Below, in pieces: positions 2,314 through 52,620 of a stretch of 64,000 nucleotides of DNA. The notes below the pieces were generated by a model. The model was not told the origin of the DNA. It made no database searches and saw only the letters and a program-made list of their open reading frames with translations. Both the position numbers and the translations under genes were made by a program. Each line of letters starts with the position of its first letter. The first letter of the stretch is position 1. This DNA comes from Chloroflexia bacterium (GTDB taxonomy: Bacteria; Chloroflexota; Chloroflexia; QHBQ01; JADMIH01): positions 122,561 through 186,560 of the forward strand of contig DASVVE010000016.1 of assembly GCA_036386675.1 (NCBI GenBank), given 5' to 3'.

Positions 2314-2829
2314 TTGGACGTCGCTTCAGTTGTGATACGTGAAGCCCGCATCTCAGACGCCGCCGGGTGCATCACTTTCTTGCGCGAGATTACTTCCGAG
2401 CCTGACATCATGATCCCCGGCTACCCTGACGATTGGGACTTTCCGGTGCAGGATGAAGAGGCTTTTATCCAGGACATGGTGGCTACGCCCAATTGCCTGA
2501 TGCTGGTCGTGGAAGCCGAGGGGAGGATAATGGGCATCCTGACCTGTCACGGCGGCAAGCGGCGCGCTATGCAACATGCAGTGATGCTGGGTGTCTCGCT
2601 ACACAAGGACTACCGCGACCGTGGACTGGGCCACCAATTGATGCAACGAGCCATAGATTGGGCCAGGGCTACCGGCATCACACGTATCGAGCTATTTGTC
2701 TATGTAGAAAACGCAAAGGGCATCCACCTGTATGAGAAGTTCGGCTTCAAGATCGAGGGCCGCCGCACCCGCGCCTACTACCACCATGGCAGGTATATAG
2801 ACGACCTAATTATGGCGCTGTTGCTTTAG
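2314..2829 (+). CDS. GNAT-family N-acetyltransferase
   Basis: 171 aa with acetyl-CoA binding-like motifs (HQLMQRAIDWARATGITRIELFV...NAKGIHLYEKFGF). TTG start; an alternative GTG lies ~18 nt downstream. Confidence 0.75.
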   Translation: MDVASVVIREARISDAAGCITFLREITSEPDIMIPGYPDDWDFPVQDEEAFIQDMVATPNCLMLVVEAEGRIMGILTCHGGKRRAMQHAVMLGVSLHKDYRDRGLGHQLMQRAIDWARATGITRIELFVYVENAKGIHLYEKFGFKIEGRRTRAYYHHGRYIDDLIMALLL

Positions 2830-2978
2830 ACGATGGACGATAGACGATGGACTATGGCAGACGAAAACGCAAAGACGCAAAGAACTCAAAGGACGCGCAA
2901 AGTAGATTACTGTTGGGAAGGGTGCTGACCTCTACTCAGTCCTCAGTCCTGTCGTCCATCGTCCATCGTCCATCGTCC
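2829..2978. repeat. Modular palindromic tandem-repeat element (copy E1): [GACGATrGAC]n-[ACGCAAAG]n-conserved core-[CAGTCCT]n-[GTCCATCGTC]n
   Basis: gacgatggacgatagacgatggac...cgcaaagacgcaaag...tagattactgttgggaagggtgctgacctctactcagtcctcagtcct...gtcgtccatcgtccatcgtccatcgtcc. Lies between the GNAT stop and the plsX RBS. Confidence 0.85.
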
Positions 2979-2996
2979 CCAAAGGAGACTTACTAG

Positions 2997-3998
2997 ATGA
3001 GAATTGCCCTGGATGCAATGGGGGGCGACCACGCCCCGCTTGAGACAGTGAAGGGAGCCATCGAGGCGGCGCGGGAGTACGGCATCGAGGTGGTGCTGGT
3101 GGGGCAGGAGGCTGCTATCCAGGCTGAGCTTGCTAAGGGCGGTACGTCGGGTCTCAAGCTCACGATTGAGCCTGCCGCCTCCGTCATCCCGATGGACGAG
3201 CACCAGCCCTCTACGGCGTGGCGGCGGCAGCGCGATTCGTCCCTCACCGTCGGCTTGCAGTTGCTGGCCGACCGCAAGGTGGACGCGTTCGTGTCGGCGG
3301 GCAACACCGGCGCTGTGGTGTCAGGTGGGACGTTCGTGCTGCGGCGCATCGAGGGCATAGACCGCCCTGCATTGGGGGTGCCGTTCCCCGCGATGGGTAA
3401 CATAGGCAAAATATTCCTCGTAGACGTGGGGGCCACACCTGACGCCAAGGCTCACTACCTGCTACAGTGGGCGCGTCTCGCTTCAATCTACATGGAGCGC
3501 GTGTACGACGTGAAGAACCCGCGCGTGGGCCTTGTATCTAACGGTGAGGAGGAGATCAAAGGCTCGGAGCTGGTGCGCGAGACGTTTCCGCTGTTGCAGA
3601 ATAGCGGCCTCAACTTCGTGGGCAATGTGGAGGGCAAGGACGTGCCCAACGGCGTGGCCGACGTGGTGGTGACCGATGGCTTCACCGGCAACGTGCTCCT
3701 TAAGACCACTGAGGGTGTCGCCAAGATGATCTTCGACCTGCTCCGCGCCGAACTGACTTCCAGCATGGTGAGCAAGCTGTTCGCCGCCGCCCTGCGCCCC
3801 AACTTCCGCCGTATAGCCGCCCGCCTGGACTACGCTGAATATGGCGGCTCAATAGTGATGGGTGTGGACGGTCTGCTCATCAAGCCGCACGGCCGCTCCA
3901 ACGCCAAGGCGATCAAGAACGCCATCCGGGTAGCCAAGAGCGGGGTCGAGCAGGATGTGATGAGCATCTTCCGCCAGGTGGGGGCGGCTGGACAATAG
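2997..3998 (+). CDS. plsX: Phosphate acyltransferase PlsX
   Basis: MRIALDAMGGDHAP... N-terminus and PlsX-typical GNTGA and FTGNV regions. RBS aaaggagac upstream. Confidence 0.9.
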   Translation: MRIALDAMGGDHAPLETVKGAIEAAREYGIEVVLVGQEAAIQAELAKGGTSGLKLTIEPAASVIPMDEHQPSTAWRRQRDSSLTVGLQLLADRKVDAFVSAGNTGAVVSGGTFVLRRIEGIDRPALGVPFPAMGNIGKIFLVDVGATPDAKAHYLLQWARLASIYMERVYDVKNPRVGLVSNGEEEIKGSELVRETFPLLQNSGLNFVGNVEGKDVPNGVADVVVTDGFTGNVLLKTTEGVAKMIFDLLRAELTSSMVSKLFAAALRPNFRRIAARLDYAEYGGSIVMGVDGLLIKPHGRSNAKAIKNAIRVAKSGVEQDVMSIFRQVGAAGQ

Positions 3999-4194
3999 AC
4001 GATGGACGATGGACGATAGTAGGAGAGACGGAACCGCCAAGACGCCAAGGACGCCAAGGACGCCAAGAACCCGCCAAGGTTTAGAATTGTTGTTGCGAAG
4101 AGTGCTAACAGCTACTCAGTCCTCCTCACTCCTCACTCCTCACTCCTCACTCCTATCGTCCATCGTCCATCGTCCATCGTCCATCGTCCATCGT
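3999..4194. repeat. Modular palindromic tandem-repeat element (copy E2), same family as E1
   Basis: (gacgatggac)x3 - (gacgccaagg)x4 - tttagaattgttgttgcgaagagtgctaacagctactcagtcctc - (ctcactcct)x4 - (atcgtccatc)x4. Sits between convergent plsX and the methyltransferase gene. Confidence 0.85.
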
Positions 4195-4201
4195 CTGCCC
4201 T

Positions 4202-5044
4202 CTATCGTTCTCGCCGCACAACGGCGATGATGTGCGTGCCTCCGTCTAGCGCGCCCGGCTCCTTGCAGTAGTCTAGCTCCCATGCGAGGAGAGTCTGCCA
4301 TAGTTGGGGATCGGACCTGGCCTGTTGCGCGGTCTCTTTGTTGTGGAGTGACAGGTAGTTGGAGGCCGAGGCGGCTACTATCTCACAGTGGTGCGCCCGC
4401 AGCAAGGCTTCTAGCTCGGACCACCTGAACATGTGGCAATAGTGCCCACCCGCGATCTCGCCGTAGAGGTCCCCGGTGCTATTTACGCGATTCGCAGCCT
4501 CTAGCCCGAATTCCTCGGTTGCTTTGAACACGCCTGCTAAGAAGGCGTTTGTAGAGCCTATCATCGACATCACGCTGAGCAGCACGTAACCGCCTGGTTT
4601 GGTGACCCGCAACAGTTCCTCCAACGCCTGTCCCGCCCTATCGAACACGTAGCTGAGCGCGCCGCCATAGCAGACCGCCGCGTCAAATGTGCCGTCGGCT
4701 ATGGCTGACAGGTCGGTGACGTCCATCACCTGCCGGGCGACCACGGAGCCTTCAAGCCCTGCTTCCTCCAGCCTCCGGCGGTTCATCTCAAGCTGCACGG
4801 GCGATATATCCCCGACCGTTACGCGAGCACCTATCCCGGCCATCTCGATTGTGAAACGTCCGGGTCCTGCACCAACGTCGAGGACATGGTCGCCGGGCTG
4901 TATGAAGCGGCGCAGGTAGTGCGTGTGCAGGTGCAGGTTGACGAGGTTGGCAGCACCCGCCTCCTGCTCGAAGCGCTGCCACTCACGCTCGCCGTAGTTG
5001 TCGTAGAAGCGGCTGATGTAGTTGGGGTCGTACTTCTTGGTCAT
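4202..5044 (-). CDS. Class I SAM-dependent methyltransferase
   Basis: Motif I VLDVGAGPGRFT and a Rossmann-fold MTase pattern. 280 aa. Confidence 0.75.
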   Translation of the reverse strand: MTKKYDPNYISRFYDNYGEREWQRFEQEAGAANLVNLHLHTHYLRRFIQPGDHVLDVGAGPGRFTIEMAGIGARVTVGDISPVQLEMNRRRLEEAGLEGSVVARQVMDVTDLSAIADGTFDAAVCYGGALSYVFDRAGQALEELLRVTKPGGYVLLSVMSMIGSTNAFLAGVFKATEEFGLEAANRVNSTGDLYGEIAGGHYCHMFRWSELEALLRAHHCEIVAASASNYLSLHNKETAQQARSDPQLWQTLLAWELDYCKEPGALDGGTHIIAVVRRER

Positions 5045-5054: not shown

Positions 5055-5453
5055 TTATTGGGCTTGCGCCCTGGAGGGCATGCGGTGGGTGGAGGCGGCT
5101 TCTAGCAGGTGGCGCACGGCTGGGCGGGTGAGGTCTTCAGGCGTCGTTATCTTCAGGTGTCGGAACAGCTTGCCGGTGCCTTGCAAAAGTCCGTCGGGGT
5201 CGGGTAGCTCGCTCCCGTAGTTGAAGCCGAGGTCTATGTGGTTCTTGTGCACGCTGATGTAGCAGAAGTGCTCGGTCATCTTCTTCGGCCCCACGCCGTA
5301 GCCCGCGATCCGCTGGCGGGGCCAGGGCACCTCAACGATGTCCGGCATTACGTCTCTGATCAACTCCCTCGCTTGCAACGCAAGGTCTCGCACCTTCGGG
5401 GTGGCAGAGGCCAGGATTTCGTTGAAGCCCTCATCGGGTGATGCGTAGCTCAT
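5055..5453 (-). CDS. DUF1801 (YdhG-like) domain protein
   Basis: 132 aa with overall similarity to DUF1801 proteins. This is a family-level guess. Confidence 0.45.
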   Translation of the reverse strand: MSYASPDEGFNEILASATPKVRDLALQARELIRDVMPDIVEVPWPRQRIAGYGVGPKKMTEHFCYISVHKNHIDLGFNYGSELPDPDGLLQGTGKLFRHLKITTPEDLTRPAVRHLLEAASTHRMPSRAQAQ

Positions 5454-5576
5454 GTTTGTTTCCTCCTTAGCCCACGTTTGGCATGAACTTGTGTCCCATT
5501 ATAGGGGCTACTTGCCACTAACGACTACGAAATGCTACCTGCACCCAGTAAAGTAGGGAGCCTGAACTACAGGCAC

Positions 5577-5742
5577 CACACTCCCCCGTGTCATCCTGAG
5601 CGCAGCGAAGGATCTCAAATGCTCCTCTTGTCGTTGCGGTGAACCCACAGCACCCTACCTTTTTTGCTCAAAGTTCAACAGCCTCCCTACTCAGCTTCTT
5701 GAGATCCTTCGCTGCGCTCAGGATGACACGGGGGAGTGTGGT
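5577..5742. repeat. MITE-like palindrome: 43-bp perfect terminal inverted repeats (ccacactcccccgtgtcatcctgagcgcagcgaaggatctcaa) around an ~80-bp spacer
   Basis: The left arm 5577-5619 is the exact reverse complement of the right arm 5700-5742. Located immediately upstream of the wecB-like gene. Confidence 0.85.
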
Positions 5743-5850
5743 CCCACTGGTCCCGCTTTGACACAGCCGTGGCTATCACCTGTGCTGCTTTGCCTGCATC
5801 GCTTCCGGGGTGTTATAATAGCCGTTGGCTCTCGAGGAGCCTGCTCAACC

Positions 5851-6912
5851 ATGAAGATACTCTCTGTTGTAGGCGCACGGCCGCAATTTATCAAGGCTGC
5901 TCCCGTGAGCCGGGCTATGTCGAGGGCAGGCGTCGAAGAAGTGCTCTTGCATACGGGGCAACACTACGACCCCGCGATGTCCGAGGTCTTTTTCGCGGAG
6001 CTGGACATTCCCGCGCCACGGCACAACCTGGGGGTAGGTTCTGGCTCGCACGCGGGCCAGACCGCTGCTATGCTTGTGGGCATCGAGCAGGTGCTGCTGG
6101 AAGAACGGCCCGATTACCTGCTGATATACGGCGACACCAACTCCACGCTGGCCGGGGCGCTGTCGGCAGCCAAGCTGGGCGTGCCGGTGGCCCACATCGA
6201 GGCGGGGTTGCGCTCCTACAACCGCGCTATGCCGGAGGAGATCAACCGCGTGGTGGCCGACAGCCTATCCAGCCTGCTCTTCTGCCCGACGGCTGCAGCT
6301 TCGGCCAATCTGCAACGCGAAGGCATCACGGGCGGTGTGTTCGTGATCGGTGACGTGATGTACGACGCCATACTCGACTCTCTGCCACGTGCCGAGGACA
6401 TGGCGTCCTCGCTCCTGTCGCGGATTGGAGTGGAGAGCGGTGGGTACTTGCTGGCGACGGTGCACCGGGCGTCCAACACCGACGACCCACGCAACCTGGC
6501 TAACATAGTAGGGGCGCTGAGCGACTCCGGCATGCCTGTGGTCTTCCCGGTACACCCACGCACCCGGAGGGCGCTGGAACAGGCGGGCGTCGTCCCCGGC
6601 GAAAACGTGCGGCAGGTGGAGCCGGTGTCCTACCTTGAGATGGTGGCGCTGGAAAAGCACGCCCGCAAGATACTCACCGACTCGGGAGGCGTGCAAAAGG
6701 AGGCGATGTGGCTGGCGGTGCCCTGCATCACCATGCGCGACGAGACCGAATGGGTGGAAACGGTGGAGCTGGGTTGGAATACCCTCACCGGCACCGACCC
6801 CGCCCGCATACGAGCCGCCATACAAGCCCCGCGTATCCATTCCACCCCACCCGACGTGTATGGTGATGGACACGCGGCAGAGAATATCGTGAATGTGATA
6901 TGTAACACGTAA
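5851..6912 (+). CDS. UDP-N-acetylglucosamine 2-epimerase (non-hydrolysing), WecB/MnaA family
   Basis: MKILSVVGARPQFIKAAPV...HTGQHYD...GDTNSTLAGALSAAKLGVPVAHIEAGLRS. The ORF-track start at 5758 is upstream of the true ATG at 5851. Confidence 0.85.
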   Translation: MKILSVVGARPQFIKAAPVSRAMSRAGVEEVLLHTGQHYDPAMSEVFFAELDIPAPRHNLGVGSGSHAGQTAAMLVGIEQVLLEERPDYLLIYGDTNSTLAGALSAAKLGVPVAHIEAGLRSYNRAMPEEINRVVADSLSSLLFCPTAAASANLQREGITGGVFVIGDVMYDAILDSLPRAEDMASSLLSRIGVESGGYLLATVHRASNTDDPRNLANIVGALSDSGMPVVFPVHPRTRRALEQAGVVPGENVRQVEPVSYLEMVALEKHARKILTDSGGVQKEAMWLAVPCITMRDETEWVETVELGWNTLTGTDPARIRAAIQAPRIHSTPPDVYGDGHAAENIVNVICNT

Positions 6913-21178: not shown

Positions 21179-21250
21179 TGGACGGACGATAGACGATAGA
21201 CGATAGACGATGGCTTGTTTCCTATCGTCCGCCGTCCATCGTCTATCGTC
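21179..21250. repeat. Minimal GACGATAGAC/GTCTATCGTC hairpin element inside the oppD-oppF intergenic gap
   Basis: ggacggacgatagacgatagacgatagacgatgg-cttgttt-cctatcgtccgccgtccatcgtctatcgtcc. Confidence 0.75.
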
Positions 21251-22853: not shown

Positions 22854-23018
22854 GGGACGAGGGACGATAGGAGACGGAAACGCCAAGACGCTAAGACGCC
22901 AAGTACCACGCCAAGGTTAAAGATTGTTTTTAGTTGGGTGCTGACCTGTACCCAGTCCTCAGTCCTCAGTCCTCAGTCCTCAGTCCTCAGTCCTCATCAC
23001 TCCTATCGTCCATCGTCC
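22854..23018. repeat. Modular palindromic tandem-repeat element (copy E4) with a conserved core
   Basis: gggacgagggacgatagg...(acgccaaga-like)x4...ttaaagattgtttttagttgggtgctgacctgtacccagtcctc(agtcctc)x5...atcgtccatcgtcc. Confidence 0.8.
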
Positions 23019-25036: not shown

Positions 25037-27979
25037 CTAACTCGGACCCAGAGTGGGTATAGTTGCGGGAAGAGTCTTGATTAGCTCAACAATGGCTTCC
25101 TGGGCCTGCCCTGAAAGCAGTTGTTGACCTACGGTGATTAACACGATAGCCAGCGGAGACAGATAGCCTAAGATGAAGCGTGCATCTCGTAGCGGGTAGA
25201 AATCAAAAATGTGTCGCCAGTAGTAGCCCTTCTCCCGGACGGTTGTAACGTCCATGAGCACTCCCAGTGCTACCAAAAATACCACTAATTCTAAAGTGCG
25301 GAAGAACCAACTGGTGCTCAGTGCTTGCCCGGTCCATGCATGGATTAAGGCATCGAAGCCCAAGGATAACCCATAAACACCTGCCAGGGCCACACCCTTA
25401 AGTGCACCATTGTTCCACGGCAGGTAAGTCGGCAAGTACGCATACAGACACCCCATGATGAATGCGGCAACTAGCCAGAAAGCTATCTCGTCGAGCACCC
25501 CCCTGGCAATCTGGAACACTGCCATAGTGGATGATGAGAATGCTTCTACTCCGCCCTGAGTGAGAAGTACATAGATGTAAAAGACAATAGGGAACAGGGC
25601 AAGCTTCCAACCGATAGTTACTGCTAGTTGTCCATTCTCCCACCAAGTGTTCCTAGGCCCCAATGCTAAACCGAGCCTATGTGGTGACAAACGCGACGGT
25701 GCCATGTGCGGTAAACGCAGCCATCTCGTCCTTCTGGTCGTGCCCCGTCGCAATGCCTCAATTTCCTGTTCTATAGCTTGATACTCCCGGCTGCTCTCAC
25801 CTGCATCCTTCTTGCCTTCCGAGAATTCCTTGTATTGAGTCGCCTCCTTGTTTTCCAGCCCTCTAATTGCTTTTGCCCGTTCGAGAAATTCGCTAACGAG
25901 GGCGGCACGTCTCGCGAACAGGTCTTCCTGCGTCAAACCAGGATTATGCGCAAGAATGCTGGAAATAACCCTTTCGACAGCCCTGAAGCGCCTCGTAAAA
26001 AGCTTGTTCATCAAGAAGAGAGCTGCGATGAAAGCAAGTGGGACCCCAAAGCCAAATAGTTGGCCGTCGGTGCCCACCACGAACGTGGCAAATAGGAGTG
26101 CCATTGAAGCCAAAGCCCAGCGGTCAGCGCTAAAAAGTAGGACGTTTGGAGACTGCGAAGCCTGGATATACAGCACGCGTAACAAGCCGAACAATGCTAT
26201 GTATGGTAAGAAGGCTATTAATTGAGCAAAAAGACTGAAGGGGTAACTTCCAAGTGAGGCAATTACCGACTCGAACCACTCTGAAGATCCAAAAGTGGAG
26301 GTATTGAATACAGTTTCCGGTGCGCTCCAGATCTTACTTCTTCTATATTCAAGTCTCACCCACTGTGCGAACGTGAGGAGCGCAAGCAAGGCAGGAATGG
26401 CGTTGAGCCACCACTGGTACCTGGCTCCGCGCGCCGGGTCGATCTTGATTACCTTCGCTGCGACTGGGTGCGGAGCGAGTGCGATGGCAAAGCGCACCAG
26501 TCCAGCCAACACGAAATACACCAGGCACAAGAATACCAGGCCGACGAGTAGCAACCACCACGGCTGATCGAACCATTCCCACAACTTATTGTCATTCGGT
26601 GCAGAGCTTGACATAAAATAGGCTATGGAACTGAACGCCGAGGGTAGGTTCAGCACTGTTAAGCTCGCCAAAGTAGTAAGTCCAATCAACAAGCGGTAGA
26701 CAAGTGGTAGCTTTCGGTTAATTTTCCGCCAGAATAGGACAGAGGCTAATGAGAAGAAAAAAGCAGAGGTAAGCAACAAAATTGAGTTCTTGAAGCCGAG
26801 GAGGAGGACCGAATTTCTGACTGTCTCATCGTAAAACCCGGAACCAGGAGCGCTGCTAGAGATGATAAGCGGATAAGCGAATATCCATAATCCATAATAT
26901 AGGAGTCCTTCCGCCGGTAGCAGCATTAGGACCAAAAGCATCCAACGTAGTGATTTTCTTGCAGGTGTCACTACATCTCTTGTGTTCTTTTTCTTCTCGG
27001 CTCCCTTTGCCGCCAGGATTCTAAACGTAGAAAAGAGAATGACGGTAGGTATAGCATAGCTTACGAGTAGGTGCAGAAAGGACCACATCGATTGATCAAC
27101 AAGAGAGCGTAGCACTGTCAGGGACAAATCAGAGGTAAGATGGCCCCGCACAGTCACATCCTGGTCAATGGCATTTTCTGACAGGTTCCAACTCACACTA
27201 CCTTGTTCGTTCAATATTGATGGTGACGGGCTTGCAGAGATGACTCTCATCCCTATCAGTTGCATGTCAATGATCCAGGTTGTCGGCGTCAGCCACTCGG
27301 CGGTTGTGAGTGCATCCCTGCCGCTTATCTCGAAAAATACCTCTGATTCAGAGGAGCTAATGTACCATGGCATTATTGTGCGAGGGTAGGAATAGAGCGC
27401 ATTAGTATTGGTGATAGTCACAGTAGCGACGTTCTGGTCTACTGATATGACAGGCGGCGCAATGCGGCTGAAGCTCTCGTGCCAGGACCCAGGCAATATG
27501 TCTTTCAAAGCCGCAAGGTAGTTCTCATCGTTCCGAGTGTGCCGTAGTAAGGTAGCTACTTCGGGACGGCTCGCGGGGAGGCTGATTGAAAAAGTACTGG
27601 TGACGATAGGGTAGGTAGCGGTGGTTGCGTCAACATCGAGTCGTGTTGTCACAGTTATTGGAGCGGGTGGGGAAGGCGGCGTAGCTACCGTATCGCTCGC
27701 ACCCTCGGGAAGTATAGTGATAGTGAGGGGTGACTGTAGAGTAAGAGTTAATACGGCAGAGACGGCTTCCGCCGGCAGGAGAGATGTTCCTGGCATGCGT
27801 CCAACACCGGGCTCACTATGTAGAGCAGCATTACCAAGCTTTACGTAACTTGACTGCGAAGCCAAATAAGCTGTTGCTCTGGCGGATGTGGTAGTTACAG
27901 TTGAGGCAGCCAAACCAAGGAGTAACAACAATCCGCCGAGTAGCCATATGCTGCGTGGTTGAATTGAGAAGTGTGACAT
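25037..27979 (-). CDS. Large polytopic membrane protein (~980 aa) with a ~330-aa N-terminal extracytoplasmic domain, unknown function
   Basis: Start MSHFSIQPRSIWLLGG... at 27979, preceded by GGAGG. Signal/anchor, then ~18 hydrophobic segments. Visibly lower GC than the flanks. Confidence 0.6.
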   Translation of the reverse strand: MSHFSIQPRSIWLLGGLLLLLGLAASTVTTTSARATAYLASQSSYVKLGNAALHSEPGVGRMPGTSLLPAEAVSAVLTLTLQSPLTITILPEGASDTVATPPSPPAPITVTTRLDVDATTATYPIVTSTFSISLPASRPEVATLLRHTRNDENYLAALKDILPGSWHESFSRIAPPVISVDQNVATVTITNTNALYSYPRTIMPWYISSSESEVFFEISGRDALTTAEWLTPTTWIIDMQLIGMRVISASPSPSILNEQGSVSWNLSENAIDQDVTVRGHLTSDLSLTVLRSLVDQSMWSFLHLLVSYAIPTVILFSTFRILAAKGAEKKKNTRDVVTPARKSLRWMLLVLMLLPAEGLLYYGLWIFAYPLIISSSAPGSGFYDETVRNSVLLLGFKNSILLLTSAFFFSLASVLFWRKINRKLPLVYRLLIGLTTLASLTVLNLPSAFSSIAYFMSSSAPNDNKLWEWFDQPWWLLLVGLVFLCLVYFVLAGLVRFAIALAPHPVAAKVIKIDPARGARYQWWLNAIPALLALLTFAQWVRLEYRRSKIWSAPETVFNTSTFGSSEWFESVIASLGSYPFSLFAQLIAFLPYIALFGLLRVLYIQASQSPNVLLFSADRWALASMALLFATFVVGTDGQLFGFGVPLAFIAALFLMNKLFTRRFRAVERVISSILAHNPGLTQEDLFARRAALVSEFLERAKAIRGLENKEATQYKEFSEGKKDAGESSREYQAIEQEIEALRRGTTRRTRWLRLPHMAPSRLSPHRLGLALGPRNTWWENGQLAVTIGWKLALFPIVFYIYVLLTQGGVEAFSSSTMAVFQIARGVLDEIAFWLVAAFIMGCLYAYLPTYLPWNNGALKGVALAGVYGLSLGFDALIHAWTGQALSTSWFFRTLELVVFLVALGVLMDVTTVREKGYYWRHIFDFYPLRDARFILGYLSPLAIVLITVGQQLLSGQAQEAIVELIKTLPATIPTLGPS

Positions 27980-28180
27980 AACTCGACTACCTCCACTATG
28001 GGAAAGTTCGCTACCATCAGGTGCCCGACATCCCTGCATGTGTCTCACAACGTCCTATATTGTACACAGAACTCATCAAATTTCCATGCAGGGTGAGAGG
28101 TATCCGTAGATGCTGCTAAGGACACGTATCGTGGCGGCATGTGTCCTTAGCAGCATCGCACATGTCGGATGTAATTAAGG

Positions 28181-28343
28181 ATGCAACTACAGGTCAAAAC
28201 TTGCCCATGTTTGCAGTGAAACTTTGCAACTGCCTGTGGAGAAAGTCTGCAACTACCCTCAATTTAGCAAACAAAGTATGCAACTGGCCTCGTACTCCTG
28301 TGCTGCGACGTCGGCCACAGAGTCGCAAATCTCTGCAACTAGC
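28181..28343. promoter_or_regulatory. Array of five direct repeats TGCAACT(A/G)(C/G)C in the upstream region of the large membrane-protein gene
   Basis: Copies at 28181, 28224, 28247, 28278 and 28333. A further copy plus its inverted partner at 28381/28431 form a hairpin. Confidence 0.35.
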
Positions 28344-28380
28344 CTAACCCTCTCTCCTCACAAACTGGTGTAGCTAAACA

Positions 28381-28441
28381 TTGCAACCAGCCTACAGGAC
28401 TCTGAGTTGTTTCTCAAGTCAGAGTCCTGTAGGCTGGTTGC
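28381..28441. terminator. 24-bp perfect inverted repeat hairpin downstream of the lipoprotein gene
   Basis: tgcaaccagcctacaggactctga-gttgtttctcaag-tcagagtcctgtaggctggttgca. Confidence 0.45.
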
Positions 28442-28526
28442 ACTGGGTGTCCGTCCCGAATTGTGGAGCAAAGCTAGACCGATACCACGTGGGGAGCGAG
28501 TAGGCTGTTACGTGCTAGAGATCCAA

Positions 28527-29651
28527 TTATTTATCTGCGCAACTCGCAGTTCCCCAGGATTCGAGTGATAGACTGGTTGGCGGGAACGACTCGTATGCAG
28601 CAACCCTCGTCCAAGCAAAGCCTGAGATATGATACCTTAGACCTTTACCCTGACCTGTCGCTCTGTCCCAGAGGGGTACAGGGACTATGAAACCACTCGT
28701 CTGTAAGAAGTCAAGGGTGCTCCTGGTCTCCGGACTTGTGCCGATGTTCTCGATTGTCTGTAGCCAGTCTCCTACAGATGCCCTATGGTCGTTGGCATCC
28801 TCTGAGTTGGCGTAATTTACGTTCTCGCCGGGCGTTGGTAAGGCAGAAGCTCTACCCGGACTGCCTGTGCCGGAACTGAATGCTAACCATCTGAAGCCCC
28901 GGGCACCCGCAGTATCTAGACTCACCTTGTTCTTGTCGTGGCGACTTTTCGATCCTTTGAAGCTGTCGGCGTGAACTGCCAGAGGATACACCTTACAGGG
29001 GGTGTTGGTCTCCCACTGTCTTGTTTGTAGGTTGTAAGCAATCATAGAGGTGGAACCGTCTTTCTGGGGAGCGATCAGAATAACGCGAGGCAAGTCTATG
29101 TATGCGATGTCCAGGGCGCCTTGCTTCTGTGGCGAGGTATACAGGATAACGTCACTTAGGTCCCGGCCTTCGAGTGTGGTCGTAAAAACCTGAACCGCAC
29201 CCTGTAGCGGATCATCACTTAGCACTCCGGCGTTCAGATACGCATATTCGTTACCCAACTTACCTCCCCAACAGGAAGTCACATGAAAAGTCCTGCTACC
29301 CCCTCCGCACGTTCCCAAACCGGGTTCAGGCGTGTCTTGCGGCTCAGGAGTGGCCGGAGGAGGTAGTGTCGGCATGGGTGCCTTGTTCTCAGCGACCCTG
29401 GTCTTCGCTGCGTCTCGCTTCGCTTGATCCATATCCAGGAAGGCTTGTTTTGTAGCCTCTACTTCCGCACGCGTCGGCGTATGAGTCTGGGAGGCGGCGA
29501 CTGTCTGATTCGGCACGCTGAGGGCATTGCCGGAGTCGTTCTGCGTGTCGTCGTTGTTACCGTTACATCCTGCGATGAGCAACAGGCTCACTAGTAGAGC
29601 AGGTCCCAGTACCCTTATGGCTGTGGTCCGTCTCTTGGTACTCACTTTCAC
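28527..29651 (-). CDS. Lipoprotein (lipobox LIAGC), unknown function
   Basis: N-terminus MKVSTKRRTTAIRVLGPALLVSLLLIAGCNG with a Pro/Thr-rich linker. 374 aa. Confidence 0.65.
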   Translation of the reverse strand: MKVSTKRRTTAIRVLGPALLVSLLLIAGCNGNNDDTQNDSGNALSVPNQTVAASQTHTPTRAEVEATKQAFLDMDQAKRDAAKTRVAENKAPMPTLPPPATPEPQDTPEPGLGTCGGGSRTFHVTSCWGGKLGNEYAYLNAGVLSDDPLQGAVQVFTTTLEGRDLSDVILYTSPQKQGALDIAYIDLPRVILIAPQKDGSTSMIAYNLQTRQWETNTPCKVYPLAVHADSFKGSKSRHDKNKVSLDTAGARGFRWLAFSSGTGSPGRASALPTPGENVNYANSEDANDHRASVGDWLQTIENIGTSPETRSTLDFLQTSGFIVPVPLWDRATGQGKGLRYHISGFAWTRVAAYESFPPTSLSLESWGTASCADK

Positions 29652-29740
29652 TTTGTTCCTCCTGACCCTGGCTTGCTACAAAAGTATGCCCAACCGTACA
29701 CAGTTGATCGCTGGAGTGGTACAAACCTGAGCATACAGGC

Positions 29741-32700
29741 TTATGGATAAATAATGTCGGTTACTCCATATTGCAAAATTGACTGAGGTTCAAGTAAAGG
29801 GTTAGGCACCTTCTGGGGTGCAGTAGGAGATCCAGTTAGGGGAGCATGAGGCGAGCTAAGCATATCTGTCAATGCTTGCCATGCTCGATGAGGTGGTAAG
29901 TAGGGACAGCCAGCACCTCCTGCCGCGCCGCTAGTGCAGGAGTAGGGTTGCCAATTACCCGTGCAGTCGGCCCCGTCCTGGGTCGTACATTTGTCATTAA
30001 ACCGCTCGTTGAAGCGTGCCGGTGTACTTGTCATACGTGCGGCACATGTGCTGTTTACGGCACAGCCTGACATGGCTCCTAAGAAACGCATATTGCTGCC
30101 CTGGTGAACCTTGGCATACCATTTGACGTTGTACCATTCCCACATGTAGGGTGTGAGGTATATTTGTGGCAGCGGCCAGGCATTAACCAAACCATATGAC
30201 ACATAGTACACACGATTCAGTGCCTCGCTTACTAGAGGACTTTGCGCCCATGTTGTCGGGCTCCCGCCTCGGGGGCAGCCCTCACAACTACCAAAGTTGA
30301 ACGCCGCCACATCTGGAATTGAGGTAAAGCCTTCTGCCCAGTACTTGGTCCCAGACTTCGCCGAGTCGTTGATCCTGTATCTACTCCATCGATCTGGATC
30401 GGCTGTCACGTTGTCAGCATTCACATTGGGGCAGGGACCTCGTTCACCTAGCACGGTATCCCTACAGTCCAGGTCAGTGGATGCATAGTACTCAAAGTCA
30501 TAACCACCTGCAAAGCTGACAGCACCACTCAAATATGGGTCTGACGCAGCTTCCTGACGCAGAGCACTTACCATTCCGGCCCACGCCGCTCCATGGCTGT
30601 AATTCAGATCCATATTATCCTGCCAGATATGTGGGCCATCAGCCAGGTACGCGGTATTGCTAACGCCTAGAACGATCGTCAGGTCAGCCACCGTGTTAGG
30701 AGCCTGGCAGCCCTGTCCAAGCGTATAGCCTAGGGCGAACTCTCGCGCTATAGCCTGGACTTCAGCCAACGAAACTAACGTACGAACAACTATGAGTCGT
30801 GCTCCATATTCGACACCTGGTGGGGAACTTACGCTTTGGATATATGGCCCTCCAAAATCCAGCACTACCAGACCTGTCTCGCCTCTTTGCCGCGCTTCAC
30901 ACCCCAAGAGCCGTGCATCGGCAGGATCGGCACTCTGTATGTAATAACTTGTGGTATGTTTTGGAGGTGTCGGTAAGGCAAAGCCCTGGGCTGAAGATAC
31001 CGCCCACTGACCTGTACCTGACTGTGCAGTAGCTACAATTTGATACATCCGGTATGCTGAATCTCCCGGCAGCGTAACTGTGTTCCATCCGCCTGTCAGC
31101 GTAACGGCAGATGTAATCGTTTGGGCGTCAGACATACCGCAGATACCCCATTGGTCGCAACTAACCTGATTTCCAGCTCTAATGTCAATTGTAGTAGCGT
31201 AGTTGCCTTCCTGGTATAGCCTGATAGTACCAACATTCGTAGGTGTTGTCAGGTCAACACGCCAGTTGTCACTTCGTGCCCCCCATATTGTAGCTTCGTT
31301 GCCATCCGTGGCGTTACCGGCCATGTATGCACAGCCACCGAAACATTCGGCACCATCCCAGGCGCGCTTGCCCAGGAACACGTCATCGGGAGGTGGAGGA
31401 GGCGGAGGAGTACCCATGATCCCTTGTATGGTGTGTACTCTCCAGCCGTCCTGTATCCCAATATGTGCTGTTGCTACAATGCTATACATACGGTACGCTG
31501 CATCTCCGGGCAGAGCAATCTCGTTCCACCCATTTACCACAGCCACATTGGCCTTTATTGTTCGCGGATCGCTCGTATCACAAATGCCCCAGCCGTCGCA
31601 CCCTACGACAGTGCCTGCGACTATGTCAACAGCCGTAGCATAGTTTCCGTCCTGGAAGAACGTTATCTTTACGATCGGCACTTGCTGCCCAACATCTACA
31701 CGCCAACTGTTGCTTCTGGCTCCCCAGTACGTGGTGCTGTTGTTGTCTACGGCATTTCCTGCCATGTTGGCACAGCCGCCAAAGCACTCGTTTCCGTCCC
31801 ACGCCGGCTTGCCTAGGAAGACGTCCTCCCCGGCCGCCGGGGTGGCCGGAGTGCTGGAAGGAGTAGCCGTGTTTGTTGATGTGGGTGTCGAGGTAGGTGT
31901 CGAAGTGGATGTAGATGTTGCTGTGAATGTTGGCGTGGGAGTAGCTCCAGGAACACCGTTACAGATGTAGGCATCCTGCACCTTGCTGCCCGTGTTATAG
32001 AGCGAACTGTCCATGTATAGAGGAGCGGACGGCGCGGTTACGGTGCTCGTGTACACAGCTACACCGTTGCGGTAGTAGCGCACTAGCCCCGAGCTACCCA
32101 CTCCAATAGCCAGCTCGTCACCTACGTCGTACAAGCTCACCGCTCCTTTAGTGGTACCGCTCTCTGCAACCGTCAAGCCACTGGTGCCCGGGTCTATATA
32201 GAAGGCGTAGTCCAGGTTCTGCCAGGTAACGTTGTTGGAGGGGTCATCGGAGAGGCCAAACATCAATATGTCCTGCGTCGAGGCCACCGTGGCGCGCACG
32301 TATCCTGTGCTGCCGGGCTGCAGGGCCGCACTAGATATGGCACCCGCGTTCCAGCCCGTACCTCCCGCCGTCTTCGCCAGGGTATTGCCTGTGGGGGTGG
32401 CATTCTGCCCGCCGGTCCACGTTACCGGCTGGCAGTTGCTCGTAGATATAGGTTCAGTGAGGCTGGCACCGCAAAGAGATGCATCCTGCACCTTGCTGCC
32501 CGAAGTGTAAAGGGAGCTATCTAGGAACAGTGGGTACTTGGGCGCTACCGTGCTGGTGTAGAGTAGCTCACCGTTCTTGTAGTAGCGGACGATCTGTGTA
32601 TCGTCCACGGCCACTCGCAACGTGTCCCCGGCATCGTACAGCCCATATCCTCCCCTGTTGGTCCCCTTCTCCACGATCTGTAATTTGCCCGCGTACGGGT

Positions 32701-34150
32701 CTATGTAGAAAGCATAATCGATGCTCTGCCACTGCACGTCAATATCGGAATTGGACAGGCCAAACATGAGGATGTCGCCGGACGAAGCCACTGTCATCTG
32801 AACATAGCCACGCCCTGACAGGATGCCCTTCCTGGAGGCACCTCCTGCGTTCCAGGCGCTGCCCCCGCTTACCTTTGTGATCGTATTCCCTGCGGCCGAG
32901 ACGTTGCGCTTACCCGTCCACGCCCCGTCCAGGCTGTCGCATGGCGACTGAGGCAAAGCCGGGTGCGCGCTCGCCCCACAAATCTGAGCATTCTGTACCT
33001 TACCACCCACATTCCAGATGGAGCTATCCATATAAAGGGGGTAAGTGGGTGCCGCTGTGCTGGTGTAGACGAGCTGGTTATTGAGATAGTATCGCACTAC
33101 CCCCGCTTGGTCTACCGCGATAGTTAGTTCATCTCCCGCATCATACATGCTCCACAAGGCTTTGGTGTTGCCCTTCTCCTGGACTGATAGCACGCCTACG
33201 CCCGGGTCTATATAGAAGGCGTAGTCCAGACTGGTCCAGTTTACGTCGCTGTCCTGGTGGGAGAGGCCAAACATGAGGGTATCGATGCCTGAAGCTATGG
33301 TGGCTCGCACGTACCCGCTGTTGCCGGACTGTATAGCCTGGCTGGAAGCAGCCCCGGCGTTCCAGCCGCTGCCCCCGGCCGTCTTCTGAACAGTGTTGCC
33401 GGTGGACATAGCGTTGCGGGTGTGGACCCACGTCACCGCCTCACAGGTGGAGGTAGGCAGCGGCGCGGGCGCACTGCCCCCGCAAATCTGCGCGTTCTGC
33501 ACCTTGCCGCCCGAGTTCCAGATGGAGCTATCCATGTACAAAGGAAAGGTCGGGGCTACCAGGCTGGTGTAAAGGAGGTTGCCATTGCGATAGTAGCGTA
33601 CTGAAGTACCCTCTACAGCTACTCGCAGTACATCTCCGGCCGCGTATGCGCCGTAGCTGGCGAGGCCAGCTCCACGCTCTATTATCGTGAGACCCCCCGA
33701 GACTGCCGGGTCTATGTAGAACGCGTAGTCAAGAGACTGCCAATGTGCATCTTTATCAATGCGAGACAGCCCGAACATGAGCGTATGGCTGGTTGAAGCC
33801 ACCGTCGCTTCAACATGCCCGCTGCTTCCCGATTGGATGCCTACACTGGAAGCGGCACCTGCATTCCAGGCGCTACCGCCCGCTGTTTTCTCAATCGTGT
33901 TGCCGGTAGCAACCACGTTCCGCTTGTGGACCCATGTTACTGCCTGGCAGTCTTCCGGTCCGCTCATGAGGGCTGCCGCCGACGCAACGTCAACACCTGG
34001 GAAGGGGGTGAGGGTGACCGACTGTAGTGAGAGGGATGAAAGGGTGAGAAACAGGATCACCATGAAGACGATGCGAAGATACCAATGGGAAGAGCGTGGG
34101 CGGAACATGATGTGGGGGCATCCCTTCGCGTGTGAACGCATGTAGAACAC
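29741..34150 (-). CDS. Giant secreted multidomain protein (1469 aa): 5x LamG/ConA-like repeats, 2x discoidin (F5/8 type C)-like domains, and a ~500-aa Cys-containing C-terminal domain
   Basis: Five ~150-aa repeats with TGNTxxKTAGGxxWNAGAxS...MFGLS...DYAFYIDP...GDxLxVAV...RYYxNGxLxYTS. PT/S-rich and poly-Pro linkers. AWDGxECFGGCAxMAGNAxDxNxxTxWGARS discoidin-like modules. The start is uncertain among three Met codons (34150, 34141, 34108). Confidence 0.7.
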   Translation of the reverse strand: MFYMRSHAKGCPHIMFRPRSSHWYLRIVFMVILFLTLSSLSLQSVTLTPFPGVDVASAAALMSGPEDCQAVTWVHKRNVVATGNTIEKTAGGSAWNAGAASSVGIQSGSSGHVEATVASTSHTLMFGLSRIDKDAHWQSLDYAFYIDPAVSGGLTIIERGAGLASYGAYAAGDVLRVAVEGTSVRYYRNGNLLYTSLVAPTFPLYMDSSIWNSGGKVQNAQICGGSAPAPLPTSTCEAVTWVHTRNAMSTGNTVQKTAGGSGWNAGAASSQAIQSGNSGYVRATIASGIDTLMFGLSHQDSDVNWTSLDYAFYIDPGVGVLSVQEKGNTKALWSMYDAGDELTIAVDQAGVVRYYLNNQLVYTSTAAPTYPLYMDSSIWNVGGKVQNAQICGASAHPALPQSPCDSLDGAWTGKRNVSAAGNTITKVSGGSAWNAGGASRKGILSGRGYVQMTVASSGDILMFGLSNSDIDVQWQSIDYAFYIDPYAGKLQIVEKGTNRGGYGLYDAGDTLRVAVDDTQIVRYYKNGELLYTSTVAPKYPLFLDSSLYTSGSKVQDASLCGASLTEPISTSNCQPVTWTGGQNATPTGNTLAKTAGGTGWNAGAISSAALQPGSTGYVRATVASTQDILMFGLSDDPSNNVTWQNLDYAFYIDPGTSGLTVAESGTTKGAVSLYDVGDELAIGVGSSGLVRYYRNGVAVYTSTVTAPSAPLYMDSSLYNTGSKVQDAYICNGVPGATPTPTFTATSTSTSTPTSTPTSTNTATPSSTPATPAAGEDVFLGKPAWDGNECFGGCANMAGNAVDNNSTTYWGARSNSWRVDVGQQVPIVKITFFQDGNYATAVDIVAGTVVGCDGWGICDTSDPRTIKANVAVVNGWNEIALPGDAAYRMYSIVATAHIGIQDGWRVHTIQGIMGTPPPPPPPDDVFLGKRAWDGAECFGGCAYMAGNATDGNEATIWGARSDNWRVDLTTPTNVGTIRLYQEGNYATTIDIRAGNQVSCDQWGICGMSDAQTITSAVTLTGGWNTVTLPGDSAYRMYQIVATAQSGTGQWAVSSAQGFALPTPPKHTTSYYIQSADPADARLLGCEARQRGETGLVVLDFGGPYIQSVSSPPGVEYGARLIVVRTLVSLAEVQAIAREFALGYTLGQGCQAPNTVADLTIVLGVSNTAYLADGPHIWQDNMDLNYSHGAAWAGMVSALRQEAASDPYLSGAVSFAGGYDFEYYASTDLDCRDTVLGERGPCPNVNADNVTADPDRWSRYRINDSAKSGTKYWAEGFTSIPDVAAFNFGSCEGCPRGGSPTTWAQSPLVSEALNRVYYVSYGLVNAWPLPQIYLTPYMWEWYNVKWYAKVHQGSNMRFLGAMSGCAVNSTCAARMTSTPARFNERFNDKCTTQDGADCTGNWQPYSCTSGAAGGAGCPYLPPHRAWQALTDMLSSPHAPLTGSPTAPQKVPNPLLEPQSILQYGVTDIIYP

Positions 34151-35766: not shown

Positions 35767-35892
35767 AAGCACATCGCACTTGGCCAGTTGCAGACTTTTG
35801 CTTCACCTCAGTTGCAAGGCTTGTCACACTATAGTTGCAAACTTTATGGGATCCGACAGTGCAGTAGGAGATCCTCGCCTATCGTCCATTGT

Positions 35893-37891: not shown

Positions 37892-38013
37892 AAGGACGAT
37901 AGAGGAGTGGTTAGTGGTTAGTGGTTAGTGGTTAGTTATTATCCGACCATCCTAATCTTTGCGCGTCCTTTGCGCTCTTTGCCTCTTTGCGTTTTCGTCT
38001 CCTACCATCGTCC
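37892..38013. repeat. Modular tandem-repeat element (copy E5), inverted orientation of the E1 family
   Basis: The reverse complement contains gacgatgg...acgaaaacgcaaagaggcaaagagcgcaaaggacgcgcaaag (near-identical to the E1 segment) followed by (actaacc)x4. Confidence 0.8.
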
Positions 38014-38408: not shown

Positions 38409-38428
38409 TGTTGTTTTACCTCGCTTGT

Positions 38429-52293: not shown

Positions 52294-52344
52294 CTGTTGT
52301 AGTGGCTGGAGCAACATAGAGCACGGGAACCAGTCTTGCCCTTC

Positions 52345-52538
52345 TCATCTTGAGCGTAGCAAAGGATCAGTGGCTCGTGCTTGGTTGCGTAACAGTGGCG
52401 ACCAAAGCCTCGGCCTTGTCATTCTGAACGCAGTGAAGAATCTCGTCCTTCAGCACCCAAGTTTCACCTTTCCTACAGCAACAGAGTCCCATAAGAAAGC
52501 GGGAGCATACTGGTATGGGACGAGATTCTTCGCTACGC
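52345..52538. repeat. Diverged copies of the 5577-5742 palindrome family (arms gtcattctgaacgcagtgaagaatctcgtc / gacgagattcttcgctacgctcagaataac, plus a third partial arm tcatcttgagcgtagcaaaggatc)
   Basis: Arms at 52417-52446 and 52509-52538 are imperfect reverse complements and differ at ~5 positions from the gtcatcctgagcgcagcgaaggatctc arms at 5590. The partial arm is at 52345-52368. Confidence 0.6.
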
Positions 52539-52620
52539 TCAGAATAACAAAGGGGGTAAGGTTCCGCAGCTCGATAGTAGCGCAGCCGCGTTCTATCTTA
52601 GAGAGGGGCACCGCAGGGGA

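What the first reader, a model, noticed from the sequence alone, without database searches (positions are those of the whole stretch)
5577..5742. MITE-like palindrome with 43-bp perfect terminal inverted repeats in the promoter region of the polysaccharide locus
The two arms ccacactcccccgtgtcatcctgagcgcagcgaaggatctcaa are exact reverse complements around an ~80-bp spacer. That level of perfection implies recent insertion or strong selection. The element sits where the promoter of the wecB-led operon would be. A diverged copy of the same arm sequence occurs at 52345-52538, so this is a dispersed family.
Basis: seen in the sequence. Interest (0 to 1): 0.6.

Follow-up and report, generated by a model that had tools for sequence, protein, structure and literature searches.

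The report
Paired hairpin repeats recognised by Ssn nucleases
The palindrome is real, but it is an ordinary member of a known class of small bacterial hairpin repeats (CGTC/TGTC-tagged REPs, also called Ssn-related motifs) that sit next to small single-strand-DNA nuclease genes in other genomes, not a classical transposon-derived MITE in the wecB promoter.

Summary
The inverted repeat is real: arms 5572-5618 and 5699-5745 are 46/47 complementary, with an 80-nt spacer. Only the inner 28 nt of each arm is the family unit: TGTC tag, then ATYCT-GA-GC-GNA-GC-GA-AGRAT, then a CTC tail. That unit is itself a hairpin supported by covariation. It occurs in almost every bacterial phylum and in viral contigs.

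It fits the CGTC/TGTC-tagged REP superfamily (Di Nocera 2013) and resembles the Ssn-related motif/NTS repeats of Chenal 2025. Pairs are mostly head-to-head with tags outward. All four small GIY-YIG genes in the motif loci, and five of five homologues looked up, are flanked by it. Those proteins are 37-51% identical to the NTS-flanked gonococcal SsnA-like protein.

Related Chloroflexia MAGs carry the element at the same site with imperfect arms. The perfect arms are therefore homogenisation, not a recent insertion. The whole roughly 165-bp element also occurs at another locus and in another MAG, so it is a dispersed REPIN-like family.

I found no target-site duplication and no ssn gene in the window. 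The best wecB promoter-like site (5790-5819) lies outside the element. Verdict: a new member of a known kind.

The parts
5572..5618 (+). Left arm of the inverted repeat (47 nt). The outer 17 nt (5572-5588) is a C-rich extension; the inner part is hairpin unit 1.
5589..5616 (+). Hairpin unit 1 (SRM/REP unit): unpaired tag TGTC 5589-5592; stem-loop ATCCT-GA-GC-GCA-GC-GA-AGGAT 5593-5613; tail CTC 5614-5616.
5619..5698 (.). 80-nt spacer of 'type A'. It is asymmetric. It is homologous to the spacers of the orthologous elements in L333/L334/L336, of the locus-2 element in L337, and of L173.
5701..5728 (-). Hairpin unit 2, identical to unit 1 but on the minus strand, so its tag points outward (head-to-head dimer).
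5699..5745 (-). Right arm of the inverted repeat (47 nt).
5790..5819 (+). Context, not part of the element: best sigma-70-like site for wecB (TTGCCT, 18-nt gap, TATAAT with an upstream TG). With the 5' UTR (5790-5850) it is 92-98% identical to the window in relatives.
52343..52370 (+). Solo, degenerate hairpin unit (tag TCTC, stem-loop ATCTT-GA-GC-GTA-GC-AA-AGGAT). An intact version is present at the same site in relative L337.
52416..52448 (+). Left arm of the second head-to-head dimer (tag TGTC 52417-52420, stem-loop 52421-52441, tail CTC 52442-52444).
52449..52517 (.). Spacer of 'type B'. The aligned element is 77% identical overall (closer within the spacer) to a dimer nested in L167, a Chloroflexota MAG. 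Relative L337 carries a type A spacer at this same locus.
52518..52550 (-). Right arm of the second dimer (stem-loop 52525-52545; degenerate tag TGTT, read as AACA on the + strand, 52546-52549).

Best explanation
The feature is a head-to-head dimer (tags outward) of a 28-nt tagged hairpin repeat. The repeat belongs to the CGTC/TGTC-tagged REP superfamily. It resembles the 'Ssn-related motifs' (SRM/NTS) described with the small GIY-YIG single-strand-DNA nuclease Ssn. The proposed mechanism has four steps. (1) In double-stranded DNA the element is largely inert. (2) When a strand becomes single-stranded (lagging-strand template, incoming transforming or conjugative DNA, repair gaps), each unit folds into a hairpin: a 5-bp stem, tandem G.A/A.G, a 2-bp stem and a GNA triloop, with the unpaired 5' TGTC tag giving it direction. 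(3) A cognate Ssn-type nuclease binds that strand of the hairpin and cuts the single strand a few nucleotides 5' of the tag. A head-to-head dimer offers one correctly oriented site on each strand. (4) The same protein-hairpin pair, or recombination between copies, spreads and homogenises the repeats. They therefore behave as non-autonomous REPIN-like elements with family-specific spacers. What is shown here: the anatomy; covariation in the hairpin; the pan-phylum distribution; the head-to-head bias; physical linkage to Ssn homologues in other genomes; orthologous retention; arm homogenisation; and copy turnover in Chloroflexia. What is inferred: that this organism encodes a cognate Ssn; that the nuclease binds and cuts this G.A variant; and that it drives spread. 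An effect on wecB expression is neither shown nor needed.
For: Unit and hairpin. The consensus from 145 copies is TGTCATYCTGAGCGNAGCGAAGRATCTC; conservation stops at the tag and tail. Two pairs were left free by the search pattern. Pair 2-18 is T-A 87, C-G 63, other 5. Pair 7-13 is G-C 119, A-T 28, G-T 7, A-C 1. Variants beside ssn genes keep TGTCATYCTGAG...CGAAGRATCTC while the inner stem changes length and sequence. Folding gives the same outer stem, 2x2 G.A loop and inner stem in all of them.

Distribution. Hits came from Chloroflexota, Acidobacteriota, Nitrospirota, Patescibacteria, Bacteroidota, Bacillota, Planctomycetota, Verrucomicrobiota, Pseudomonadota and others.

Arrangement. With exact matches, neighbouring copies are +- 28, -+ 0 and same-strand 12. 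With up to 4 mismatches they are head-to-head 56, tail-to-tail 9 and head-to-tail 25 among 397 copies. This matches 'HH predominant, TT rare' for CGTC REPs (PMC3733652). There is no orientation bias relative to neighbouring genes: 63 against 58.

Protein partner. All 4 small GIY-YIG genes (PF01541, 93-108 aa as translated) found in the 120 genome loci lie 2-111 nt from a copy and are flanked on both sides. All 5 homologues looked up from the protein side are flanked too. They include a Chloroflexota MAG with the window's exact 25-mer 74 nt downstream of the gene. These proteins are 37-51% identical over their full length to a N. gonorrhoeae ORF that sits among 13 canonical NTS repeats. That is the NTS-ssnA-NTS layout whose protein was shown to bind and cut single-stranded NTS DNA (PMC11893778).

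This lineage. The 28-nt units are 93-100% conserved among relatives, against 59-84% for the flanks and 53-82% for the arm extensions. The arms are 46/47 paired here but 40/47 in relatives even with G-T counted. Eight mismatches or wobbles have been resolved in this lineage. The full-length type A element is present at locus 1, at locus 2 of L337 and in L173. Occupancy of locus 2 differs among close relatives.
Against: The published SRM search pattern, HGTCWYN(0-2)YYVSBRHN(0-5)WNVSBRGN(0-2)RNCYNB, does not match this motif, because the tandem G.A falls on an S position. No ssn homologue is in the 64-kb window (best E = 2), and the rest of the genome could not be read. Standard DNA energy parameters do not rate a single arm's hairpin above shuffles (z about 0); the evidence for the hairpin is covariation, not energy. 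No clean empty site or insertion junction was obtained: at locus 2 the SRM-free relatives have a wholly different intergenic sequence. Cutting, binding and mobilisation by a Chloroflexia Ssn are untested. Di Nocera 2013 found no transposase for CGTC REPs, and Chenal 2025 proposes but does not demonstrate mobilisation by Ssn.
Confidence: 0.8

Rival explanations
1. A classical MITE: a deletion derivative of a DDE-transposase insertion sequence whose 43-bp terminal inverted repeats are the transposase binding sites, inserted recently upstream of wecB.
For: Long perfect inverted repeats around a short non-coding spacer. The unit starts TG...CA, as many DDE elements do. The full-length element is dispersed.
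Against: There is no target-site duplication (sequence). Only the inner 28 nt is shared by the family, and the outer arm is not conserved. Solo units outnumber pairs, and tandem arrays occur. The element is orthologous in relatives, where its arms are imperfect, so it is not recent. No transposase lies between widely spaced copies; L197 has groES/groEL and L015 has phage structural genes. The linked gene is a GIY-YIG nuclease.
Confidence: 0.03
2. A REPIN of the GTAG type, mobilised by a RAYT (Y1 HUH transposase).
For: It has the same general design: a tagged imperfect hairpin, inverted doublets with a spacer, no target-site duplication, and multiple copies (PMC3116915 and PMC3337134 as listed).
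Against: The tag is TGTC or CGTC, not GT[AG]G. CGTC REPs are not associated with RAYT genes (PMC3733652). The flanked gene found here nine times out of nine is GIY-YIG, not a Y1 transposase.
Confidence: 0.04
3. An RNA-level element: a bidirectional terminator, an mRNA-stabilising hairpin or a small RNA encoded by the spacer.
For: The predicted fold is very strong on both strands. The spacers are partly conserved between genomes. Locus 2 lies between convergent genes. REPs are reported to terminate or stabilise transcripts (background text of PMC6006769).
Against: The unit shows no orientation bias relative to neighbouring genes. No terminator-like site was found. Rfam gives no match even at E up to 10. 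Locus 1 lies between divergent genes, upstream of the best promoter-like site. SsnA does not bind RNA (PMC11893778).
Confidence: 0.07
4. A local cis-regulatory DNA structure (a cruciform or protein-binding site) that controls the divergent DUF1801 and wecB promoters.
For: It lies about 45 nt upstream of the predicted -35 of wecB and is retained at this site in all relatives examined. Repeats of this class cluster next to surface or polysaccharide genes in Neisseria and Thauera (PMC11893778; PMC3733652).
Against: The same units occur in every kind of intergenic context, and inside genes. Only 1 of 80 wecB-relative loci has a copy nearby, and that copy is 1.3 kb upstream. This reading is not exclusive of the main explanation.
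Confidence: 0.06

Closest known systems
Ssn-related motifs (SRM), including the Neisseria NTS/dRS3 repeat, with the SsnA GIY-YIG single-strand DNA nuclease (Chenal et al., Nat Commun 2025, PMC11893778)
   Same: A 28-nt directional hairpin repeat laid out as tag (H)GTC + AT... stem ...AT + C-rich tail. Compare NTS CGTC-ATTCCCGCG-MAV-GCGGGAAT-CYRG with TGTC-ATYCTGAGC-GNA-GCGAAGRAT-CTC. Copies flank the gene of a ~95-aa single-domain GIY-YIG protein on both sides. The proteins next to this motif are 37-51% identical to the NTS-flanked gonococcal protein. The family is multi-copy and found across phyla.
   Different: The stem is interrupted by a tandem G.A/A.G pair and closed by a GNA triloop, so the published SRM search pattern does not match it. 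The sequence is nearly the same across about 20 phyla rather than lineage-specific. No ssn gene is seen in this window. There is no biochemical evidence for this variant.
CGTC-tagged REP superfamily (Di Nocera, De Gregorio and Rocco, BMC Genomics 2013, PMC3733652), which includes Neisseria dRS3 and Rickettsia RPE-4/RPE-6
   Same: An unpaired CGTC or TGTC tag; a stem whose first two pairs are A-T and T-A; a 3-nt tail; head-to-head dimers (tags outside) predominant and tail-to-tail rare; spacers of 20-100 bp that are conserved within families; in-frame copies inside genes; no transposase association.
   Different: That paper describes continuous 8-9 bp stems, 4-5 nt loops and a CCA tail, in 5 phyla. 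Here there are 9 stem positions of which 2 are G.A, a 3-nt loop and a CTC tail, in many more phyla including Chloroflexota.
REPINs and RAYTs (Bertels and Rainey 2011)
   Same: Inverted doublets of a tagged hairpin with a spacer, which persist and evolve as a within-genome population, with no target-site duplication.
   Different: The tag is GTAG and the partner is a Y1 HUH transposase. Here the tag is TGTC and the linked gene is a GIY-YIG nuclease.
MITEs
   Same: A small non-coding element with inverted ends, dispersed in the genome.
   Different: MITEs have transposase-binding TIRs, target-site duplications and a related autonomous IS. None of these was found here.
GCGNAGC DNA mini-hairpin (Hirao and colleagues; review PMC13037366, seen)
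   Same: The apex of the unit reads GC-GNA-GC, the sequence class reported as an unusually stable DNA mini-hairpin.
   Different: That is a physico-chemical motif, not a genetic element. Its relevance here is my inference.

Membership tests
Ssn-related motif (SRM/NTS) - Ssn nuclease system | A 20-50 nt hairpin-forming repeat with a conserved, non-palindromic 5' flank (HGTC) that gives it direction | tested here: met
   Tag T/C-G-T-C is conserved at 72-87%, the tail C-T-C at 60-91%, and the flanks beyond are random. Covariation supports the stem.
Ssn-related motif (SRM/NTS) - Ssn nuclease system | Matches the published degenerate SRM pattern HGTCWYN(0-2)YYVSBRHN(0-5)WNVSBRGN(0-2)RNCYNB | tested here: not met
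   A regular expression built from the pattern matches NTS but neither window arm nor the family consensus. The failure comes from the G.A positions. This is a search heuristic, not a biological definition.
Ssn-related motif (SRM/NTS) - Ssn nuclease system | Copies flank genes for single-domain ~95-aa GIY-YIG proteins homologous to SsnA | tested here: met
   4 of 4 from the motif side and 5 of 5 from the protein side. The domain is PF01541 only. The proteins are 37-51% identical, E 1e-16 to 1e-29, to the NTS-flanked N. gonorrhoeae ORF. The CDD cd10448 assignment itself could not be run.
Ssn-related motif (SRM/NTS) - Ssn nuclease system | A cognate ssn gene in the same genome | tested here: inconclusive
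   None in the 64-kb window or in L121.
Ssn-related motif (SRM/NTS) - Ssn nuclease system | Strand-specific binding and cleavage of single-stranded DNA upstream of the motif | not testable with these tools
   Needs biochemistry. It has been shown only for Neisseria and Wolbachia proteins (PMC11893778).
CGTC-tagged REP superfamily | Unpaired terminal CGTC (or TGTC/CCTC) tag next to the stem | tested here: met
CGTC-tagged REP superfamily | Stem of 8-9 bp that starts with A-T then T-A; loop of 4-5 nt; 3-nt unpaired tail | tested here: inconclusive
   The A-T/T-A start and the 3-nt tail are met. There are 9 stem positions but two are G.A, the loop is 3 nt, and the tail is CTC rather than CCA.
CGTC-tagged REP superfamily | Head-to-head dimers (tags outside) predominant, tail-to-tail rare | tested here: met
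   28 against 0 with exact matches; 56 against 9 with relaxed matches.
CGTC-tagged REP superfamily | Copies also occur in frame inside genes | tested here: met
   Peptides such as DSSLRSES, ILRFAQND and CHSERSEES occur inside phage and other ORFs.
REPIN / RAYT | GT[AG]G tag, and a RAYT gene flanked by the repeats | tested here: not met
   The tag is TGTC and the flanked genes are GIY-YIG. No dedicated RAYT search was run.
MITE | Target-site duplication, and an autonomous IS with the same terminal inverted repeats | tested here: not met
   No direct repeat flanks 5572-5745. No transposase lies between spaced copies.

The most novel reading that the evidence does not exclude
The TGTC / tandem-G.A hairpin may be an uncatalogued, nearly sequence-invariant, pan-bacterial class of Ssn-related motif that escapes the published search pattern. 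An untagged form of it is built into phage replication origins. In 8 viral contigs it sits in frame in the linker of lambda-O-like or DnaD-like initiator genes. In the six checked, iteron-like repeats lie within about 100 nt. If so, the hairpin, and possibly Ssn nucleases, may act on DNA that becomes single-stranded at origins, for example in priming, nicking or anti-phage restriction, rather than only on transforming DNA.
Probability: 0.15. Interest if true: 0.65.

Novelty: new member of a known kind. Interest (0 to 1): 0.35.

Why it matters
For this window, the result removes a tempting but wrong reading, namely a recent MITE insertion rewiring the wecB promoter. The element is old, sits outside the promoter-like site, and belongs to a repeat class that has a known protein partner.

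More broadly, the published SRM search pattern misses a very widespread variant. Genome-wide SRM counts and Ssn-motif pairings based on that pattern are therefore probably underestimates. This variant gives a ready-made and highly conserved substrate for testing Ssn specificity.

The Chloroflexia comparison also shows arm homogenisation and spacer swapping at a fixed unit. This is direct evidence that the dimers pair or recombine in vivo.

Tried and rejected
- **Rfam:** no match at gathering threshold over the whole window, and none at E up to 10 over 5400-5900.
- **Literature search by sequence strings:** only chance primer matches.
- **Metagenome scan for the extended arm** (CACTCCCCCG plus the core): 0 hits, and the source contig is not in that collection, so a same-genome copy count was impossible.
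- **Candidate autonomous element,** two outward-facing copies 2.3 kb apart in L197: they enclose groES/groEL, not a transposase. Same-strand pairs in L015 and L069 enclose phage genes.
- **Empty-site search through wecB relatives in metagenomes:** the best hits are only 69-72% identical, too distant to use. Only 1 of 80 loci has a copy.
- **Exact-protein look-ups of the flanking genes:** only contigs identical to the window. The 90% cluster members then gave usable relatives.
- **Viral scan for the GIY-YIG protein:** one weak hit, so the nuclease gene is essentially absent from the viral collection.
- **Folding energy of single arms:** not better than shuffles, so I did not use it as evidence.
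- **PDB sequence search for the GIY-YIG protein:** no hit.
- **Supplementary files of both key papers:** neither holds motif sequences as text.
- **Hammerhead, k-turn, attC, dif and parS resemblances:** I considered these from memory and dropped them, because the defining core sequences do not fit.

Full report
**1. The observation**

The sequence at 5572-5745 is a near-perfect inverted repeat. The arms are 5572-5618 and 5699-5745 (47 nt, one mismatch), with 80 nt between them. The perfect run is 44 nt. The region folds far better than dinucleotide shuffles, with z = -11.9 to -14.9. Two independent short-read contigs contain the outer part of each arm and break inside the arms, so the repeat is real. 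The 'diverged copy' near 52.4 kb is real as well. It consists of one degenerate solo unit (52343-52370) and a second inverted pair (52416-52448 / 52518-52550, 88% complementary). The window holds five copies of the core against none expected by chance.

**2. The unit is shorter than the arms**

The organisms named cover Chloroflexota, Acidobacteriota, Nitrospirota, Patescibacteria, Bacteroidota, Bacillota, Planctomycetota, Verrucomicrobiota, Gemmatimonadota, Omnitrophota and several classes of Pseudomonadota.

Aligning 145 copies shows conservation only over 28 nt: TGTC-ATYCTGAGCGNAGCGAAGRAT-CTC. The flanks are random apart from a C-rich bias on the 5' side. The 21-nt middle is itself a hairpin: a 5-bp stem, tandem G.A/A.G, a 2-bp stem and a GNA triloop.

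Two stem pairs were left free by the search pattern, and both covary. The first is T-A 87, C-G 63, other 5. The second is G-C 119, A-T 28, G-T 7, A-C 1. Standard energy parameters do not rate the single hairpin above shuffles. The evidence for the hairpin is therefore covariation, not energy.

**3. Arrangement**

The unit shows no orientation bias relative to neighbouring genes (63 against 58). That argues for a DNA-level element rather than an RNA-level one. Neighbouring copies are strongly polarised. With exact matches there are 28 inverted pairs with tags outward and none with tags inward. With up to four mismatches the counts are 56 outward, 9 inward and 25 tandem among 397 copies. Most outward pairs stop being complementary right at the tag, and the median spacer is 32 nt. 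The window's two dimers have long spacers, in the top tenth of the distribution.

**4. What is known**

A text search led to two papers. Di Nocera et al. 2013 (PMC3733652) sort REPs into GTAG-tagged and CGTC-tagged superfamilies. The CGTC class has these features:

[quoted passage not shown] - a 3-nt tail;
- 'HH' dimers, defined as tags outside, predominant, and TT dimers rare;
- spacers of 20-100 bp that tend to be conserved in HH dimers;
- copies inside genes;
- no associated transposase.

It includes Neisseria dRS3 and Rickettsia RPE-4/6.

Chenal et al. 2025 (PMC11893778) showed that the extended dRS3 repeat (NTS, CGTCATTCCCGCGMAVGCGGGAATCYRG) is bound as single-stranded DNA by SsnA, which cuts just upstream of it. 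SsnA is a 94-aa single-domain GIY-YIG nuclease. Its gene is flanked by NTS-like 'Ssn-related motifs' in many phyla, and the pair modulates natural transformation in N. meningitidis. The window's unit has the same 4 + 21 + 3 layout as NTS.

**5. Membership tests**

The published degenerate SRM pattern does not match the window's unit, because the tandem G.A falls on positions required to be G or C. I therefore tested the biological criterion directly.

- **From the motif side:** the 120 genome loci contain four small GIY-YIG genes. All four lie 2-111 nt from a copy and are flanked on both sides. Pfam finds essentially only the GIY-YIG domain in them.
- **From the protein side:** a profile search found at least 7,987 small homologues, which is the cap of the search. 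All five looked up are flanked by TGTCATYCTGAG...CGAAGRATCTC hairpins whose inner stem varies. One is a Chloroflexota MAG that carries the window's exact 25-mer 74 nt downstream of the gene.
- **The link to Neisseria:** a gonococcal chromosome filed as a plasmid in PLSDB gave the Neisseria homologue. It is an ORF embedded among 13 canonical NTS copies, and the motif-adjacent proteins are 37-51% identical to it over their full length.

The unit therefore behaves as an SRM of the Ssn system, in a subclass that the published pattern misses. No ssn gene lies in the window. The rest of the genome could not be read.

**6. History of this copy**

The source is a Chloroflexia MAG. Relatives whose WecB is at least 90% identical carry the element at the same place between the DUF1801 gene and wecB.

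Conservation by segment, window against relatives, is as follows:

| Segment | Identity |
|---|---|
| The two 28-nt units | 93-96% (100% between the relatives) |
| Promoter-like region and 5' UTR (5790-5850) | 92-98% |
| Flanks | 59-79% |
| Outer arm extensions | 53-82% |

In the relatives the two arms differ in the hairpin (GAACGCAGTGAA against GAGCGTAGCGAA) and in the extension. They pair at 40 of 47 positions even when G-T is counted. In the window eight such mismatches or wobbles have been resolved to Watson-Crick pairs, six of them to G-C. The perfection is therefore lineage-specific homogenisation of an old element. Candidate mechanisms are repair of an extruded hairpin or conversion by another copy. 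It is not a recent insertion.

**7. Is the whole element a dispersed unit?**

Yes. The full-length 'type A' element (both units, the spacer, and short C-rich/G-rich extensions) is found in three contexts. These are locus 1 in the window and three relatives, in reverse orientation at locus 2 of relative L337 on the same 77-kb contig as its locus-1 copy, and in another Chloroflexia MAG (L173). The right half of the window's spacer resembles those non-orthologous copies more than it resembles its own orthologues. That points to conversion between copies.

At locus 2 the left unit is shared by the window and L337, but what follows differs: a 'type B' spacer in the window (also seen in L167) and a type A spacer in L337. 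Genomes that encode the identical isocitrate-lyase-family protein either carry units there (L341) or have an unrelated, unit-free intergenic region (L338-L340). This is turnover, but no clean junction or target-site duplication could be defined.

**8. Relation to wecB**

The only sigma-70-like site in 5400-5900 is at 5790-5819, about 45 nt downstream of the element and about 30 nt upstream of the wecB start codon. It is almost invariant in relatives. The element lies in the divergent intergenic region but not in the predicted promoter. An influence on transcription cannot be excluded and was not tested.

**9. Verdict**

This is a head-to-head dimer of a TGTC-tagged REP / Ssn-related motif, behaving as a REPIN-like non-autonomous repeat. 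The specifics do not hold: the 43-bp arms as functional TIRs, a recent insertion, a target-site duplication, and a position in the promoter.

It is a new member of a known kind. The points that go beyond the literature are the G.A subclass missed by the published pattern, its near-invariance across phyla, and the side observation on phage origins.

Noticed in passing
L003 7711-7731, L007 2841-2861, L009 2419-2439, L034 2974-2994, L039 1329-1349, L065 3314-3334, L076 3201-3221, L108 4773-4793 (IMG/VR contigs): An untagged form of the hairpin (AGATTCTGAACGNAGTGAAGAATCT) sits in the interdomain linker of phage replication-initiator, lambda-O-like or DnaD-like helicase-loader genes. The G.A strand is antisense to the gene in all eight, and seven are in the frame that encodes SSLRSE (L076 reads PSLRSG). 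In the six loci checked, iteron-like direct repeats lie within about 100 nt on the N-terminal-coding side (for example at least 7 x 11 nt in L007). This is the layout of lambda-type origins, so the hairpin may be an origin component.
   Followed up: partly
window 2829-4208, 21185-21211, 22953-22996, 37906-38933, 52234-52263, 59346-59443: There are many short tandem arrays of 7-nt units (4-7 copies each; 26 TRF rows in all). They often occur as nearby inverted pairs of the same unit, such as GACGATG/TCGTCCA and GGATAGT/CTATCCA. One array directly precedes the locus-2 hairpin cluster and is conserved in relatives.
   Followed up: no
L115 9438-9746 (IMG/VR contig): The 28-nt unit also forms head-to-tail tandem arrays with a 30-nt period (unit plus CCCCC).
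   Followed up: no
L251 540-740; L159 2580-2790 and 4010-4220; L180 370-730: In some genomes the inverted repeat of a dimer extends 20-40 nt beyond the tags, or the dimer is nested inside a larger repeated palindrome. In L180 partial units (TGTCATCCTGAGCACTTAC) are tandemly repeated on both outer sides.
   Followed up: partly
window 52416-52550 compared with L337 2926-3076: At the same locus two close relatives share the left hairpin unit but have unrelated spacers and right units (type B against type A). It looks as if recombination or replacement is anchored at the unit.
   Followed up: partly
window 5604 / 5713 and 52433: Short-read (Logan) assemblies of the same organism break exactly inside the hairpin arms. 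In the JGI assembly of sample 3300034760 the two loci lie on different contigs (Ga0334948_000014 and _000016), whereas the window joins them.
   Followed up: partly
window 26001-36000: G+C drops to 0.50-0.54 against about 0.60 elsewhere, inside or just beyond the polysaccharide gene cluster. This may be a horizontally acquired or variable part of the locus.
   Followed up: no
PLSDB record NZ_CP119142.1 (locus L332): A 2.17-Mb Neisseria gonorrhoeae replicon is filed as a plasmid with almost no annotation. It is evidently the chromosome. It provided the ssnA-like ORF surrounded by 13 NTS repeats.
   Followed up: no
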